Origin: Escherichia phage SmurfNell
Sequence record: OR896824.1
Length of the DNA: 64,000 bases
Direction: 5' to 3' (one strand)
A program made the position numbers and the translations under genes. Under the pieces are notes generated by a model. That model was not told the origin of the DNA and did not search any database. It saw only the letters and a program-made list of their open reading frames with translations. Of the stretch, positions 19,992-23,918 are shown in pieces (the first letter of the stretch is position 1; the number at the start of each line of letters is the position of its first letter).

Positions 19992-20414
19992 ATGAGTACA
20001 GAAAACCGAGTTATTGATATTGTTGTTGATGAGAAAGTGCCTTATAGTCTTATCATGCAATTTATGGATGTTGATGATAGCGTATATCCGCCAACAGAAT
20101 TTCCTGTTAACTTGACAGGGTATTCACTCAGAGGAACTATTAAATCTAGTTTAGATGAGAACGCCGAGGTTCTAGCTAATTTTAAAACTCATGTTATTGA
20201 TGCTGCTCAAGGTGCTGCTGCAATTAGTCTTTCCATTGCAGACACTACTAATATTGGTGAAAAAGCATCTAAAGAACGTGATAAGTATAACCCAAGACAA
20301 CGTTTTGCTGGTTATTATGATATCCTAATGACTCGTGATGTAATTGGCTCTGAAGTCAATTCTTTCCGTATTATGGAAGGTAAAGTATACATCAGCGATG
20401 GAGTAACTCAATAA
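19992..20414 (+). CDS. Collar protein (tail-fibre attachment)
   Basis: 140-aa ORF immediately upstream of the tail fibre gene. Confidence 0.5.
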
Positions 20415-23365
20415 TGGCACTTAAAACTAAAATTATTGTACAGCAGATTCTGAACATAGACGACACTACAACTACTGCTAGTAAATATCCTAAGTATACG
20501 GTAGTTTTAGGTACTTCTATTAGTTCTATTACTGCTAGTGAACTAACAGGGGCTGTTGAGGCCTCTGCTGCTTCTGCTGCGGCAGCAAAAGATTCTGAAA
20601 TTGCAGCAAAAGAATCTGAAACAAATGCTAAGGACTCGGAGAACCTAGCTGCAATTTACGCTAACTCTTCAGAAACTTCTGCAACTCAATCTGCTGCTTC
20701 TGCTACTGAAGCGGAGAGACAAGCTGGTTTATCTAAAGATAGTGCTGATGCCTCTGCTACGTCAGCTGAGGAATCCAAAGGATTCCGTGATTCTGCTGAA
20801 CTTGCTGCACAAAATGCTGAACAGAGTCGTCTATTAGCTGAACAAGCTAAGAAGGACGCTGAGGCTGCTAAGACTGCTGCTGCTACTTCTGAGCAAAATG
20901 CTGCTACATCTGCTACTGAATCTACCAATCAGGCTATTGCTGCTGCTGGTTCTGCTACAGAGGCGGGAGAATACGCTACTACTGCAAAAGACTCCGAGAT
21001 AGCTGCTAAGACTTCAGAACTTAATGCTAAGAATTCTGAGAATGAATCTGCTATTTCTGCTGAAGCTTCAGAAGCTTCTGCTTCTCAGTCTGCTATTTCT
21101 GCTTCTCAATCTGCTGCATCCGCTACTAAAGCTGCAGAATCATCAGCTGCAGCAAAAATTAGTGAAACTACTGCTATAGAATCATCAGCTGCAGCAAAAA
21201 CTAGTGAGATTAATGCAAAAACTAGTGAGACTAATGCAAAAACTAGTGAGACTAATGCAGCAGCATATGCAGCAGCAGCAAAAACTAGTGAGACTAATGC
21301 TGCTGATTCCGCTGCCTCTGCTTCTGACTCCAAAGGATTCAGGGATGAAGCAGAAGCATTCGCTGCACAAGCCTCCACATCAGCATTAGCAGCAAAAAAC
21401 TCAGAAACTAATACAAAGACTAGTGAAATTAACTCAAAAGCTAGTGAAGACGCTGCTAAGCTAGCTCAGCAAAGTGCATCAGGTAGTGCGAATACAGCTA
21501 CGCAAGCGATGACCACAACCAAAGGCTACAGAGACGAAGCAGAGGTATTTAAAAATACCGCCACTACTGCTGCAACGACAGCAACAGACAAGGCCCTGGA
21601 GGCCGCTGGTAGCGCTACAATAGCAGGAGAGAAAGCTACTAATGCCACCAGTGCAGCAGATAGAGCGGAGACAGCGGCTGCATCAGCAGAACAGGTTATG
21701 CAAGCGTCGTTAAAGAAGGATCAAAACCTTAATGATCTTGCAAACAAAGACCTTGCAAGGGAGGCGCTAAAAGTTGAGGCTGTTAATTCTGTAAAAGATC
21801 AATATGCTGGCGCTTATAATTCTTTTCGTAATCCTGCATGGACTTATGAATTACGGATCGCTAACAATGGGGAATGGCGCGTTGCGCGTAATAACAATAA
21901 CAGCACATCTGCGCTTTCTATTGGTGCTGGCGGTACTGGTGCTGAAAACGTTGAGGGCGCAAAAATAAACTTTGGCATTGATCGTTTAAAGCAAACAGAA
22001 ACAGAAACTATGATGTATGCACCAGGGAGTAACTCACCTTATCGAATCACAATTAGACCTGATGCGGCGTGGGGTGTTTGGACTGATGAAACTGGAAGAT
22101 GGATTCCTCTTTCAATTGATGCTGGCGGCACTGGATCTAATACTGAAGTTGGAGCAAGAAAGAACTTAAATACTCCTGTTGGTGGTCAAGCAATTATTAT
22201 TCCTGATAATTCAAACATTCTTGGGTTTATGTCAACATACGCAGAAAGCGGTTATTACTCAAGCGGAGAACTTGTTACATATCAACCACCTGAAGCCTCT
22301 GGTTGGTGGATGTATGAATTGCATGTTCACCGTGAAAATGCAAACGGTCATGTTGAGTATGGAAATATTGTTGCAACCGCAATGAACGGTAATAAATGGG
22401 GTATCATTTGCAGTGCTGGCTCTTGGGGTGGATGGTACAGGATAGCAAGATCTGATAGGCAATTGATGTTATTAAGTCCTGATGCTCAATCGGCTCTTGG
22501 TGATTACTCTATAGCAATTGTGGATCATGATTCAGGTCTTAAATGGGATCGTGATGGTCACATAAGCGCGTTTGCTGATTCAGCGAGAATATTTGCATGG
22601 ACTCCATCAGGAATAAACACTTACAGGGTCATATCATCTTATGTTGATGATAACGCAAGGGGTATGTATGTAAATGGAGTTAGGCGCGGTGATCCAAACG
22701 CTCTTATTGCTGGTCAAGTTGAGGGTGGTTTATTTGCCGACTGGCGTAGTCGTGCGTCTGGATTGCTTGTTGAGCACACTGGATTTGATTCTGCGGTTGC
22801 CATATTTAAATCTGTTTATTGGGGGAAAGATTGGATAGCTGGCATGGATGTTGTTCCGTGGACTTCTGGCGGCGCTGAAACACATCTTCATGTTAAGGGC
22901 GCTGAATTTATTTTTGATAGTGCTGGAAATGGTAGCGCATCAAATTGGGTTAGCAGGTCTGACATTAGATTAAAAGCACATCTAAAAGAGATCGAAACGG
23001 CATCCGACAAAATTGATTATCTAACTGGTTATACTTACTACAAGCGCAACAATCTAATTGAAGATGAAAACAGCGTTTATAGTATTGAGGCTGGATTGAT
23101 CGCACAAGATGTTGAAAGGGTTTTGCCGGAAGCGGTTCATTCTTTGAATAACGATGGTCAGCTAGACCCAAAAGGCGAGGCAATCAAAGGCATTAACTAT
23201 AATGGTGTTGTCGCACTTCTTGTTAACGCATTCAAAGAGCAAAAAGCAAAGATTGATAATCAACAGGAGGAAATTAACGTATTACGCAATGAGTTATATG
23301 AACTGAAAAACCTTGTAAAATCAATGCTTAACGGAAATGCTCCAACAATTACAGAACTACCGTAA
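20414..23365 (+). CDS. ltf: L-shaped tail fibre with C-terminal intramolecular chaperone (S74-type) domain
   Basis: 983 aa; Ala/Ser/Glu-rich repetitive shaft; C-terminal ~135 aa carries SDIRLK (nt 22958-22975) then ...YNGVVALLVNAFKEQ...coiled coil, the signature of self-cleaving chaperone domains. Confidence 0.8.
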   Translation: MALKTKIIVQQILNIDDTTTTASKYPKYTVVLGTSISSITASELTGAVEASAASAAAAKDSEIAAKESETNAKDSENLAAIYANSSETSATQSAASATEAERQAGLSKDSADASATSAEESKGFRDSAELAAQNAEQSRLLAEQAKKDAEAAKTAAATSEQNAATSATESTNQAIAAAGSATEAGEYATTAKDSEIAAKTSELNAKNSENESAISAEASEASASQSAISASQSAASATKAAESSAAAKISETTAIESSAAAKTSEINAKTSETNAKTSETNAAAYAAAAKTSETNAADSAASASDSKGFRDEAEAFAAQASTSALAAKNSETNTKTSEINSKASEDAAKLAQQSASGSANTATQAMTTTKGYRDEAEVFKNTATTAATTATDKALEAAGSATIAGEKATNATSAADRAETAAASAEQVMQASLKKDQNLNDLANKDLAREALKVEAVNSVKDQYAGAYNSFRNPAWTYELRIANNGEWRVARNNNNSTSALSIGAGGTGAENVEGAKINFGIDRLKQTETETMMYAPGSNSPYRITIRPDAAWGVWTDETGRWIPLSIDAGGTGSNTEVGARKNLNTPVGGQAIIIPDNSNILGFMSTYAESGYYSSGELVTYQPPEASGWWMYELHVHRENANGHVEYGNIVATAMNGNKWGIICSAGSWGGWYRIARSDRQLMLLSPDAQSALGDYSIAIVDHDSGLKWDRDGHISAFADSARIFAWTPSGINTYRVISSYVDDNARGMYVNGVRRGDPNALIAGQVEGGLFADWRSRASGLLVEHTGFDSAVAIFKSVYWGKDWIAGMDVVPWTSGGAETHLHVKGAEFIFDSAGNGSASNWVSRSDIRLKAHLKEIETASDKIDYLTGYTYYKRNNLIEDENSVYSIEAGLIAQDVERVLPEAVHSLNNDGQLDPKGEAIKGINYNGVVALLVNAFKEQKAKIDNQQEEINVLRNELYELKNLVKSMLNGNAPTITELP
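21137..21300 (+). repeat. Tandem 21-bp direct repeats inside tail fibre gene
   Basis: GCAAAAACTAGTGAGACTAAT repeated at 21215, 21236 and 21278, with a diverged copy at 21194, encoding AKTSETN units. Confidence 0.8.
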
Positions 23366-23504
23366 TATAAGTGGAGTGCAATCTGTCACTGAAAAATATT
23401 GCTGCGAAACAAGCCTGAACATTGATTATCCTAGCAACGCAACGCGTGTTCTGCTATGTTAACAGTTCGCTGATTCTTAGGCTGTTCTTATGTACAATAT
23501 GAAA

Positions 23505-23570
23505 ACGCAAAATGCAAAATGCAAAATGCAAGAGGTTCGTTTTGCACCCTCTCAAAAAAAAAAAAAAAGA
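23505..23570 (+). repeat. (GCAAAAT)x4 tandem heptamer plus A15 homopolymer in noncoding spacer
   Basis: ACGCAAAATGCAAAATGCAAAATGCAAGAGG then 15 consecutive A at about 23555-23570. Confidence 0.8.
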
Positions 23571-23617
23571 TTAATAAAATAAAGGAATTAGTAAAACAAC
23601 TCCTTACTAAATAAGAG

Positions 23618-23653
23618 AAAACCCCAGTGGACAATCCACTGGGGTTTATTATT
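23618..23653. terminator. Bidirectional rho-independent terminator between convergent modules
   Basis: Perfect CCCCAGTGGA-CAA-TCCACTGGGG hairpin with AAAA upstream and TTTATTATT downstream. Confidence 0.8.
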
Positions 23654-23918
23654 ATCTACTACCTGCAATACTACCTAAGTTATATACTGCTAGCATGGCT
23701 TTAAGCATATGATCTTGAGATTCAGTGCAAAGTGCGATAAATCCTTCTTCATCCCACTGTTCTACTACACCAGATGCACCAACTCTCAGTACTATTTTCT
23801 CAGGTTCAACGTATTTAACGTCAATCTTGTAAAAGTTAGATTGATCTACGCCTACTCCTACCATAGTAGGACCAACAAAATTACTTACTTCCTGAGCTTC
23901 CAAAGCCGCCTTCTCCAC
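23652..23918 (-). CDS. Hypothetical small protein overlapping dut 3' end
   Basis: 88 codons from GTG at 23918 with GAGGAG 7 nt upstream; fills the gap between dut stop and terminator. Confidence 0.35.
   Translation of the reverse strand: MEKAALEAQEVSNFVGPTMVGVGVDQSNFYKIDVKYVEPEKIVLRVGASGVVEQWDEEGFIALCTESQDHMLKAMLAVYNLGSIAGSR

What the first reader, a model, noticed from the sequence alone, without database searches (positions are those of the whole stretch)
23366..23651. Convergence-zone spacer with (GCAAAAT)x4 repeat and A15 tract
The 286-bp gap between the tail fibre gene and the minus-strand early block has no ORF but contains a perfect tandem heptamer array (23505-23530), a 15-nt poly(A) run (about 23555-23570) and the bidirectional terminator (23622-23644). 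Homopolymer and short tandem repeats are slippage-prone and can bend DNA, so this could be a replication/packaging-related site, a protein-binding array or a hypervariable locus.
Basis: seen in the sequence. Interest (0 to 1): 0.45.

Follow-up and report, generated by a model that had tools for sequence, protein, structure and literature searches.

The report
Gene-relic spacer with slippage repeats
The 286-base gap after the tail-fibre gene of this T5-like phage holds the decayed leftovers of two genes left behind by tail-fibre swapping, and its poly(A) run and 7-base repeat most likely grew there by copying slippage and vary freely among close relatives, so it is most likely ordinary.

Summary
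The window has A15 at 23554-23568, three perfect GCAAAAT copies plus partial ones at 23502-23531, and a 13-bp bidirectional terminator at 23619-23647. All three exceed chance.

The window is an Epseptimavirus (T5-like). The spacer is a fossil made of two gene relics.
- **Relic 1 (23378-23553):** this matches codons ~148-205 of a ~235-aa gene of unknown function (phrog_9288). In T1-like Tempevirinae that gene follows the lateral tail-fibre gene. Here it carries two in-frame stops shared with seven other Epseptimaviruses. It also lacks a 575-bp segment that two Tlsviruses flank with the direct repeat GAGGCGCAAC.
- **Relic 2 (23568-23614):** this is the last 15 codons plus stop of the fibre gene that in other T5-likes ends 3 nt before the same terminator.

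A15 sits exactly at the junction of the two relics. The heptamer array is a 14-nt expansion inside relic 1.

Among 12 close relatives the A run is 10-22 long and the perfect heptamer count is 1-3. Other T5-likes lack the spacer entirely.

A sub-threshold PreQ1 riboswitch hit (26 bits, E 0.43 window-wide) is best read as chance.

The site is hypervariable. No replication, packaging or protein-binding role is supported. Interest is low.

The parts
20414..23365 (+). Lateral tail-fibre gene (983 aa) with a C-terminal Peptidase_S74 intramolecular chaperone domain. This is context: its 3' part is Tlsvirus-like.
   Evidence: ORF. Pfam PF13884 E 1.6e-10. 56% aa identity over 648 aa to the Tlsvirus UTK0007 fibre, and the last 76 nt are 89% identical.
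23366..23386 (+). Post-stop nucleotides homologous to Tlsvirus UTK0007, running into the deletion junction GAGTGCAATC (about 23377-23386). The junction is a diverged copy of the 10-bp direct repeat GAGGCGCAAC.
   Evidence: In UTK0007 and PHB07, GAGGCGCAAC occurs once in the terminator hairpin after the fibre stop and once in codons FEAQL of the downstream gene. The copies are 575 and 581 bp apart. The window has one copy and lacks everything between them.
23378..23553 (+). Relic 1: a pseudogene fragment covering codons ~148-205 of a phrog_9288 gene. It carries two in-frame stop codons and a 14-nt repeat expansion.
   Evidence: 74-80% nt identity to the intact genes of PHB07, UTK0007 and grams. 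tblastn of the PHB07 protein hits relatives identical in this stretch (faergetype, 1-19) at q148-202, E 1e-7. The frame reads TEKYCCETSLNIDYPSNATRVLLC*QFADS*AVLMYNMK..., against AERCCCETNLNIERQGNATRDLLRQQFADSQAVLICDMK in PHB07. Both stops are shared with 7 other Epseptimaviruses.
23502..23531 (+). Heptamer microsatellite: AAAACGC, then (AAAATGC)x3, then AA. This equals three perfect GCAAAAT copies at 23507-23527. It is an expansion of the ancestral coding stretch ..AAAGCGCAATTGCAAG.. (K A Q L Q).
   Evidence: TRF 4.3 copies. The alignment shows a +14 nt insertion relative to the intermediates and Tempevirinae. Perfect copy number is 3, 2 or 1 among close relatives.
23531..23552 (+). A 5-bp hairpin, AGAGG-UUCGUUUUGCAC-CCUCU. 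With the A run it gives a sub-threshold match to the PreQ1-I riboswitch model (23526-23568). I judge the resemblance to be chance.
   Evidence: RF00522 scores 26.1 bits against a gathering score of 39. E is 0.002-0.009 locally but 0.43 for the whole window. In Tempevirinae the same bases encode QEARFALSQ and cannot form the stem.
23554..23568 (+). A15 homopolymer, sitting exactly at the junction between relic 1 and relic 2.
   Evidence: The run is 10-22 nt in close relatives and 4-17 nt in other Epseptimaviruses. beppo and S126 have CAGTACAAAAGATTAC at the same place.
23568..23614 (+). Relic 2: the last 15 codons plus stop (KINKIKELVKQLLTK*, TAA at 23612-23614) of the LtfB/S74-type tail-fibre gene that occupied this position earlier.
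   Evidence: 34-39 of 47 nt are identical, ungapped, to the 3' ends of the fibre genes of EscoHU1 (..EIDELKELVKQLLAK*), EH3 and Tequintavirus pork29. The best value for the PHB07 gene is 21/47.
23619..23647 (.). Bidirectional intrinsic terminator (13-bp stem, 3-nt loop) serving the late fibre operon (+) and the early D12-D15/dut operon (-).
   Evidence: It is conserved in every T5-like locus examined, from both Epseptimavirus and Tequintavirus. Seafire annotates it as a terminator on both strands.
23652..23918 (-). 88-aa DUF7369 gene (phrog_5592), the last gene of the minus-strand block. This is context only.
   Evidence: Pfam PF24084 E 3e-30, PHROG 5592.

Best explanation
The spacer is non-coding debris from two successive lateral tail-fibre cassette exchanges. 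It now serves only as the 3' untranslated tail of the fibre mRNA, up to the conserved bidirectional terminator.

**Step 1.** In the ancestral T5-like layout the fibre gene ended 3 nt before the terminator.

**Step 2.** A cassette of the kind found in T1-like Tempevirinae (lateral fibre gene plus the ~235-aa phrog_9288 gene) replaced most of the resident fibre gene. The right-hand crossover left the last ~47 nt of the old fibre gene (relic 2). It also cut off the last ~30 codons of the incoming phrog_9288 gene, which then decayed through shared nonsense mutations.

**Step 3.** In the window's lineage a second, UTK0007-like fibre allele came in. The 575 bp between two copies of GAGGCGCAAC were lost, which left only codons ~148-205 (relic 1).

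**Step 4.** Without selection on this DNA, replication slippage expanded a cryptic imperfect repeat (AAAGCGC-AATTGC) into the GCAAAAT array. Slippage also expanded an A-rich junction (..ACAAAAG..) into a long poly(A) run. Both tracts keep changing length between isolates.

What is shown: the homologies, the stops, the deletion with its flanking repeat, the tract-length variation and the absence of the spacer elsewhere. What is inferred: the order of events, slippage as the mechanism, transcription as a 3' UTR and the lack of function.
For: - **Identity of the phage.** The window is an Epseptimavirus, 99% identical here to SuperGirl and faergetype.
- **Relic 1.** It is 74-80% identical in nt to the 3' third of an intact ORF directly downstream of the lateral fibre gene in PHB07, UTK0007 and grams. 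tblastn of that protein shows a decay series in Epseptimaviruses, from q65-205 in 1-3 pieces down to q148-202 in the window's close relatives.
- **Shared stops.** Frame translation shows two stops shared by the window and seven Epseptimaviruses. Those seven keep the whole ~700-nt pseudogene and have a further shared stop at codon ~110.
- **Deletion.** The missing segment is flanked by GAGGCGCAAC in UTK0007 and PHB07, and the fibre 3' end is 89% identical to UTK0007.
- **Relic 2.** 34-39 of 47 nt match the 3' ends of the EscoHU1, EH3 and pork29 fibre genes, which stop 3 nt before the same terminator.
- **Variable tracts.** The A run is 10-22 nt and the perfect heptamer count is 1-3 in close relatives. 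The same relic carries other homopolymer expansions in other lineages: A17 (the run is 15 A's at a second site) in bux and G10-12 in beppo and S126.
- **Near-neutral substitution rate.** Relic 1 is 89-97% identical to the intermediates, against 94-97% at dut third codon positions.
- **Homopolymer avoidance elsewhere.** The rest of the 64 kb has no A or T run of 7-14 nt, although about 20 are expected.
- **Literature.** The lateral tail-fibre locus is a known diversity hotspot in Markadamsvirinae and in small siphoviruses (PMC8594841).
Against: - The 22-nt hairpin is identical in most Epseptimavirus relics, and two of its changes from the coding ancestor (CTG to CCC) run against the AT drift. 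With about 6% neutral divergence, however, 22/22 identity has p of about 0.26.
- No transcript or protein-binding data exist for this region, so absence of function is inferred and not shown.
- Homopolymer lengths in assemblies can be partly sequencing error. The heptamer copy differences and the 10-22 range are too large for that alone.
- Only 20 relatives were aligned base by base, out of 334 matching records.
Confidence: 0.88

Rival explanations
1. The hairpin plus A-rich tail (23526-23568, + strand) is a working PreQ1-I-like aptamer or another structured RNA element. It would have been exapted from the relic and would act in the fibre mRNA 3' UTR, or in a short RNA started near the TACAAT at 23493-23498 and ended at the terminator.
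For: - It is the only Rfam hit with E below 1 in the whole window, at 26.1 bits. P1, the GGUUCG loop start, the ..ACCC closing bases and the A-rich tail all align.
- The loop is 12 nt long, which as I recall matches the Bacillus subtilis queC aptamer.
- The hairpin is conserved in all Epseptimavirus relics sampled.
Against: - The score is 13 bits below the gathering score, and E is 0.43 for the window, which is what chance gives.
- The score tracks the length of the variable A run. Relatives with short runs give no hit.
- The conserved CUA/P2 partner in the tail is missing.
- There is no ORF or ribosome-binding site downstream to regulate, and a strong terminator follows 50 nt later.
- The bases derive from codons QEARFALSQ, and the A tail is a recombination junction.
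- No covariation is available to test, and the MFE fold of the spacer does not use this hairpin.
- No promoter passed the scan upstream.
Confidence: 0.03
2. The heptamer array and the A tract form a cis-acting DNA site: iterons plus an AT-rich unwinding or bent element for replication initiation or packaging, or a binding array for an early phage protein.
For: Tandem repeats beside a very AT-rich stretch (17% GC at 23554-23618) look superficially like origins. The site lies at a switch of transcription direction and GC skew.
Against: - The array has 0-1 perfect copies in seven other Epseptimaviruses and in Tempevirinae.
- Six of seven other T5-like loci have no spacer at all.
- The motif is not enriched elsewhere in the window (14 against 13.6 expected).
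- The 7-bp period is out of helical phase.
- The skew switch simply follows gene orientation.
- From general knowledge, T5 ends are fixed terminal repeats located elsewhere in the genome.
Confidence: 0.02
3. The variable tracts act as a contingency switch. Length changes in the 3' UTR (poly(A), repeats) would tune the stability or translation of the fibre mRNA, or the efficiency of the terminator, giving heritable variation in fibre dosage.
For: - High tract-length variability among near-identical genomes.
- The location is directly downstream of the host-range determinant.
- In beppo and S126 a G10-12 run alters the 3' arm of the terminator.
Against: - The tracts lie outside any ORF, promoter or ribosome-binding site.
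- Most T5-likes do without the spacer.
- Substitution divergence is close to neutral.
- No precedent for this mechanism was found or tested here.
Confidence: 0.05
4. The small ORFs in the spacer, annotated in some relatives as 'hypothetical protein' or even 'tail fiber protein', encode real micro-proteins.
For: SuperGirl, SB13, NBSal002, BSP22A and BD13 annotate ORFs of 30-43 aa here. The window has ORFs 23337..23462, 23490..23582 and 23519..23614.
Against: - The A run lengths (10 to 22 nt) fall in all three classes modulo 3, so the reading frame across the tract is not kept.
- The ORFs are simply frames of the two relics.
- faergetype, fuchur, OSY-STA and 1-29 annotate no CDS in the spacer, and eleven further close-relative records list no feature under the match.
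Confidence: 0.02

Closest known systems
phrog_9288 gene (uncharacterised, ~235 aa) directly downstream of the lateral tail-fibre gene in Drexlerviridae/Tempevirinae (PHB07, UTK0007, grams); tblastn also finds it in Nonagvirus SE1, JenP1 and similar phages, whose gene context was not examined here
   Same: Window 23378-23553 is homologous to codons ~148-205 at 74-80% nt identity. It occupies the same position relative to the fibre gene.
   Different: The window copy is a truncated, stop-riddled, frame-shifted fragment with no start codon. The intact family is 225-265 aa.
3' end of the LtfB/S74-chaperone-type lateral tail-fibre genes of other T5-like phages (EscoHU1, EH3, pork29)
   Same: Window 23568-23614 matches their last 15 codons and stop codon. 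It lies at the same 3-4 nt distance from the same terminator.
   Different: In the window it is an orphan 47-nt stub, separated from the current fibre gene by 200 nt of another relic.
Simple-sequence (slip-strand) repeats and homopolymer tracts, as in bacterial contingency loci
   Same: Copy number and tract length differ between near-identical genomes. They arise from proto-repeats, which is what slippage predicts.
   Different: They are not placed in an ORF or a promoter, so no switchable phenotype is apparent.
PreQ1-I riboswitch aptamer (Rfam RF00522)
   Same: A 5-bp P1, a 12-nt loop beginning UUCG and ending AC, and an A-rich 3' tail.
   Different: The score is below the gathering score. 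There is no CUA/P2 partner and no downstream gene. The tail length is variable, and the element derives from coding sequence.
Bidirectional Rho-independent terminators between convergent operons
   Same: A GC-rich 13-bp palindromic stem with T-rich runs on both strands sits between convergent late and early operons. It is conserved across T5-likes.
   Different: Nothing unusual apart from the loop-flip polymorphism between relatives.

Membership tests
Pseudogene relic of phrog_9288 | Significant sequence homology to intact family members | tested here: met
   blastn gives 74-80% identity over 116-177 nt, E 1e-22 to 1e-32. tblastn reaches E 1e-7 on faergetype and 1-19, which are identical to the window in this stretch. 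The intact query matches phrog_9288 at E 1.7e-124.
Pseudogene relic of phrog_9288 | Loss of coding capacity (truncation, in-frame stops, frameshifts) | tested here: met
   About 148 N-terminal codons are missing and there are two in-frame stops. A +14 nt insertion shifts the frame, and a further ~25-nt deletion relative to PHB07 removes the following codons.
Pseudogene relic of phrog_9288 | Substitution rate close to neutral | tested here: inconclusive
   Relic 1 is 89-97% identical, against 94-97% at dut third codon positions. This fits neutrality, but only 118 sites were compared.
Relic of an earlier tail-fibre gene 3' end | Homology to, and the same position as, the 3' end of fibre genes in relatives | tested here: met
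   34-39 of 47 nt are identical, the stop codon is aligned, and the distance to the terminator is the same.
Slip-strand microsatellite / hypervariable homopolymer | Copy number or tract length differs among otherwise near-identical genomes | tested here: met
   A10-A22 and 1-3 perfect heptamers in 12 genomes that are 95-99% identical.
Slip-strand microsatellite / hypervariable homopolymer | Length heterogeneity within one population (reads) | not testable with these tools
   No read data were available.
PreQ1-I riboswitch (RF00522) | Covariance-model score at or above Rfam's gathering score (39 bits) | tested here: not met
   26.1 bits, and E 0.43 over the window.
PreQ1-I riboswitch (RF00522) | 3' tail able to form P2 with the loop (conserved CUA after the A-rich stretch) | tested here: not met
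   The alignment puts gaps or A's where the consensus has CUA. Only U-A pairing with poly(A) would be possible.
PreQ1-I riboswitch (RF00522) | Position in the 5' leader of a regulated gene, with an expression platform | tested here: not met
   There is no credible ORF downstream on the + strand, and the terminator follows 50 nt later regardless of the aptamer.
PreQ1-I riboswitch (RF00522) | Ligand binding | not testable with these tools
   This needs in-line probing or ITC.
Iteron-type replication origin or protein-binding array | The repeat array is conserved in number and sequence among relatives | tested here: not met
   0-1 perfect copies in seven other Epseptimaviruses, and the spacer is absent in six of seven other T5-like loci.
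Intrinsic bidirectional terminator | GC-rich stem-loop followed by a T run on each strand, conserved among relatives | tested here: met
   13 pairs, 7 of them GC, with T-rich tails on both strands. Present in all T5-like loci. Termination activity itself was not tested.

The most novel reading that the evidence does not exclude
The relic has been co-opted. The conserved AGAGG..CCUCU hairpin with its A-rich tail would act as a degenerate PreQ1-I-like or other ligand- or protein-binding RNA element in the 3' UTR of the lateral tail-fibre mRNA, or in a ~140-nt RNA ending at the terminator. The slippage-prone A tract would tune its activity between isolates.
Probability: 0.03. Interest if true: 0.6.

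Novelty: new member of a known kind. Interest (0 to 1): 0.12.

Why it matters
The main value is for annotation and for reading the history of the locus.

- It explains a puzzling spacer. It shows that the small ORFs annotated there in several GenBank records, including two 'tail fiber protein' calls in SuperGirl, are frames of dead genes.
- It gives a base-resolved record of lateral tail-fibre cassette exchange between two phage families (Demerecviridae and Drexlerviridae). This includes a 10-bp microhomology at one junction and an orphaned stub of the replaced fibre gene at the other.
- It is a cautionary case of a gene relic plus a slippage tract mimicking a riboswitch model.
- In practice, the A tract and the heptamer count are cheap strain markers. 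They are also likely trouble spots for assembly.

None of this bears on a long-standing open question.

Tried and rejected
- **Rfam.** I ran it at permissive thresholds on the spacer, on the whole window and on 18 related loci. Only the sub-threshold PreQ1 hit appeared, and I rejected it as chance.
- **Promoters.** The sigma-70 scan found nothing that would start a transcript in the spacer. The only site overlaps the terminator and points into the antisense of the early genes. The TACAAT at 23493-23498 has no -35 and derives from TGCGAT by AT drift.
- **RNA folding.** The low z-scores are driven by the terminator, and the MFE structure does not use the PreQ1-like hairpin.
- **IMG/VR.** Searches with the DUF7369 protein and with a conserved 17-mer returned only 5 and 10 loci, so I took relatives from GenBank phage records instead.
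- **Function of the parent gene.** There was no significant Pfam, NCBIfam or PADLOC hit: Pfam and PADLOC gave nothing and NCBIfam only a chance-level match (E 0.043, far below cut-off), and PDB sequence search gave only chance-level similarity of the Gly-rich N-terminus to influenza HA2 (E ~0.1). All 185 homologues are 'hypothetical'. The AlphaFold2 model was too poor (pLDDT 49; two long helices) to justify a fold search.
- **Motif as a dispersed binding site.** GCAAAAT is not enriched in the window.
- **Literature.** I found no T5 transcript map of this region in the searchable papers.

Full report
**1. The observation**

The gap 23366-23651 lies between two genes. On the + strand it follows the stop of a 983-aa tail-fibre ORF (20414..23365, with a C-terminal Peptidase_S74 chaperone domain). 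On the minus strand it precedes the stop of an 88-aa DUF7369 ORF (23652..23918). That ORF heads a block of dUTPase, flap endonuclease and D14/D13/D12 homologues.

- The A run is exactly 15 nt, at 23554-23568.
- The heptamer GCAAAAT is perfect three times (23507-23527). It is followed by GCAA and preceded by an imperfect copy. TRF reports 4.3 copies at 95% match over 23502-23531, so 'perfect x4' is a slight overstatement.
- The terminator is a 13-bp stem with a 3-nt loop at 23619-23647, with T-rich tails on both strands.

These features are not chance. A15 is the only homopolymer longer than 6 nt in the 64 kb, with about 0.0015 expected. GCAAAAT x3 is the only perfect 7-mer triple. Neither occurred in 200 Markov simulations. 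The rest of the window has no A or T run of 7-14 nt, although about 20 are expected. The one long run therefore marks DNA that has escaped the constraint seen elsewhere in the window.

**2. What the window is**

The spacer is 95-99% identical to many Epseptimavirus genomes (T5-like, Demerecviridae). Examples are SuperGirl, faergetype, SB13, Seafire and EPS7. In all, 334 phage records match at least part of it.

**3. Relic 1**

A spread of weaker hits unexpectedly included ~50-kb Drexlerviridae of the subfamily Tempevirinae, in the genera Tlsvirus and Hanrivervirus. In these phages the matching DNA lies inside an intact ~235-aa ORF directly downstream of the lateral tail-fibre gene.

The alignment shows window 23378-23553 to be the counterpart of codons ~148-205 of that ORF. 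In the right frame the window reads TEKYCCETSLNIDYPSNATRVLLC*QFADS*AVLMYNMK... PHB07 reads AERCCCETNLNIERQGNATRDLLRQQFADSQAVLICDMK...

tblastn with the PHB07 protein shows a decay series in Epseptimaviruses. Seven of them (vaffelhjerte, S126, bux, SP_Thor, RA40, beppo, S113) keep the whole ~700-nt gene, but it is broken. All share a stop at codon ~110 and the same two Q-to-stop changes seen in the window. The gene was therefore already dead in a common ancestor.

The family is phrog_9288, of unknown function. It has no Pfam, NCBIfam, PADLOC or PDB relative, and all 185 homologues found are 'hypothetical'. A low-confidence model predicts a disordered Gly-rich N-terminus followed by two long helices.

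**4. The left junction**

The window's fibre gene is Tlsvirus-like. It is 56% identical in aa over 648 residues to the UTK0007 fibre, and the last 76 nt are 89% identical. This homology continues 12 nt past the stop and then jumps 575 bp in UTK0007.

In both UTK0007 and PHB07 the missing segment is flanked by the direct repeat GAGGCGCAAC. One copy lies in the terminator hairpin behind the fibre gene. The other lies in codons FEAQL of the downstream gene. The window has a single diverged copy, GAGTGCAATC, at about 23377-23386.

This is the signature of a microhomology-mediated deletion or crossover. Whether it happened in the donor or during the exchange cannot be told from these data.

**5. 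Relic 2 and the right junction**

Partial hits in other T5-likes covered only the last 80-90 nt of the spacer and lay under 'tail fiber protein' annotations. In EscoHU1, EH3 and the Tequintavirus pork29 the fibre gene ends ..EIDELKELVKQLLAK*, 3 nt before the same terminator.

Window 23568-23614 reads KINKIKELVKQLLTK*. It matches those 3' ends at 34-39 of 47 nt without gaps. The best value anywhere in the PHB07 gene is 21/47. This stretch is therefore the orphaned stub of the fibre gene that used to sit here.

Six of seven other T5-like loci have no spacer at all.

The A15 run lies exactly between relic 1 and relic 2. In beppo and S126 the same junction reads CAGTACAAAAGATTAC, which is a plausible seed for the run.

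**6. The repeats are variable expansions**

Relative to the seven intermediates and the Tempevirinae coding sequence (..AAAGCGCAATTGCAAG.., encoding K A Q L Q), the window has a 14-nt insertion of two extra heptamers.

| Feature | Genomes | Value |
|---|---|---|
| Perfect GCAAAAT copies | window and nine close relatives | 3 |
| Perfect GCAAAAT copies | fuchur | 2 |
| Perfect GCAAAAT copies | OSY-STA | 1 |
| A run length | BSP22A, SB13, OSY-STA, Seafire, SH9 | 10, 12, 12, 13, 14 |
| A run length | window, faergetype, fuchur | 15 each |
| A run length | SuperGirl, 1-29, NBSal002, BD13 | 17, 18, 19, 22 |
| A run length | intermediates | 4-17 |

These two tracts fully explain the different match lengths (267-293 nt) of the eleven close relatives that were aligned.

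Other lineages grew different homopolymers in the same relic. bux has a run of 15 A's where the window has A5 at 23390-23394. beppo and S126 have G10-12 on the 3' arm of the terminator.

The A run lengths fall in all three classes modulo 3. The small ORFs annotated across the tract in several records therefore cannot be conserved genes.

Substitutions in relic 1 (89-97% identity to the intermediates) are about as frequent as at dUTPase third codon positions (94-97%). This is consistent with neutral drift.

**7. The riboswitch lead**

Rfam gave a sub-threshold PreQ1-I hit at 23526-23568. The hairpin AGAGG-UUCGUUUUGCAC-CCUCU plus the A run scores 26.1 bits against a gathering score of 39.

I followed this lead because the resemblance in P1, the loop ends and the A-rich tail is striking. 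The evidence is against it:
- E is 0.43 for the whole window, which is what chance gives.
- The score follows the length of the variable A run, and relatives with short runs give no hit.
- The CUA/P2 partner is missing.
- Nothing lies downstream to regulate before the terminator.
- The hairpin bases are codons QEARFALSQ in the intact gene, where the stem cannot form.
- The 'tail' is a recombination junction.
- The 22/22 conservation among Epseptimaviruses is not significant at the local divergence (p about 0.26).

I keep this reading as the most novel one not excluded, at about 3%.

**8. Other functional readings**

- GCAAAAT is not enriched elsewhere in the window (14 against 13.6 expected).
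- No promoter passed the scan inside the spacer.
- The GC-skew switch simply follows gene orientation.
- The low folding z-scores come from the terminator.

The only element with a clear and conserved role is the bidirectional terminator. It is present in every T5-like locus examined.

**9. Verdict**

The spacer is a composite fossil. In order it contains: the post-stop nucleotides of a Tlsvirus-like fibre cassette, a microhomology junction, a dead fragment of phrog_9288, a slippage-grown poly(A) at the next junction, a 47-nt stub of the previous fibre gene, and the conserved terminator.

It most likely does nothing beyond being the 3' untranslated end of the late fibre transcript. That last point is inferred.

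The literature already describes the lateral tail-fibre locus as a recombination hotspot in these families (PMC8594841). This is a new, well-resolved instance of a known kind, and its interest is low.

Noticed in passing
window 23619-23647; loci L001, L002, L006-L010, L021-L038: The loop of the conserved terminator hairpin is flipped between otherwise near-identical phages. The window, SuperGirl, NBSal002, SB13, OSY-STA, EscoHU1 and HdH2 have GGACAATCC. faergetype, Seafire, 1-29, BSP22A, BD13, fuchur and SH9 have GGATTGTCC. This looks like recurrent small inversions within the palindrome.
   Followed up: partly
L003:3058-3771, L004, L005:3056-3757 (Tempevirinae); L029-L035:1291-~1930 (Epseptimavirus): phrog_9288 is a conserved, uncharacterised ~235-aa protein that sits directly behind the lateral tail-fibre gene in the three Tempevirinae loci examined; tblastn also finds it in Nonagvirus-type phages. 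It has a Gly-rich hydrophobic N-terminus (with chance-level similarity to the influenza HA2 fusion-peptide region, E ~0.1), long predicted helices, an invariant CCC motif and a PTPPTPPTGCC C-terminus. It is broken by the same stop at codon ~110 in all seven Epseptimaviruses that retain it.
   Followed up: partly
L031 (bux) about 1776-1800, equivalent to window 23390-23394; L034, L030 and L014 at the terminator 3' arm: Independent homopolymer expansions occur in the same relic in other lineages. bux has a run of 15 A's where the window has A5. beppo, S126 and an IMG/VR contig have G10-12 extending the 3' arm of the terminator, which could alter termination or could be an assembly artefact.
   Followed up: no
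GenBank LC788710 (Wa28) positions 11-213; also OQ680479 (phB7) record end, OR862218 (SP33) and MK972709 (SE20) record starts: Several assemblies are linearised inside or next to this spacer. Wa28 breaks exactly at the end of the A run (query position 203). This suggests the homopolymer causes assembly breakpoints and is not a physical genome end.
   Followed up: no
L021 372-497 and 547-651 (SuperGirl bas29_0021 and bas29_0022); similar ORFs in SB13, NBSal002, BSP22A and BD13: Small ORFs inside the relic spacer are annotated as 'tail fiber protein' or 'hypothetical protein'. They are frames of the two dead genes and do not keep frame across relatives.
   Followed up: yes
window 1-64000: Homopolymer avoidance: there are no A or T runs of 7-14 nt in 64 kb, although about 20 are expected from a first-order Markov model. 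Runs of 6 are also about half the expected number.
   Followed up: partly
window 21135-21300 (also 20580-20622, 21076-21115, 21404-21448): There are 21- and 42-nt tandem repeats (4-5 copies, ~75% match) inside the tail-fibre gene. They presumably encode a repetitive shaft segment. faergetype annotates the equivalents as repeat_region.
   Followed up: no
L010 (IMGVR_UViG_2974606035, 109 kb T5-like), between the fibre ORF end and the terminator: This T5-like contig has a different 218-nt gap between its fibre gene and the terminator. It may hold yet another relic.
   Followed up: no
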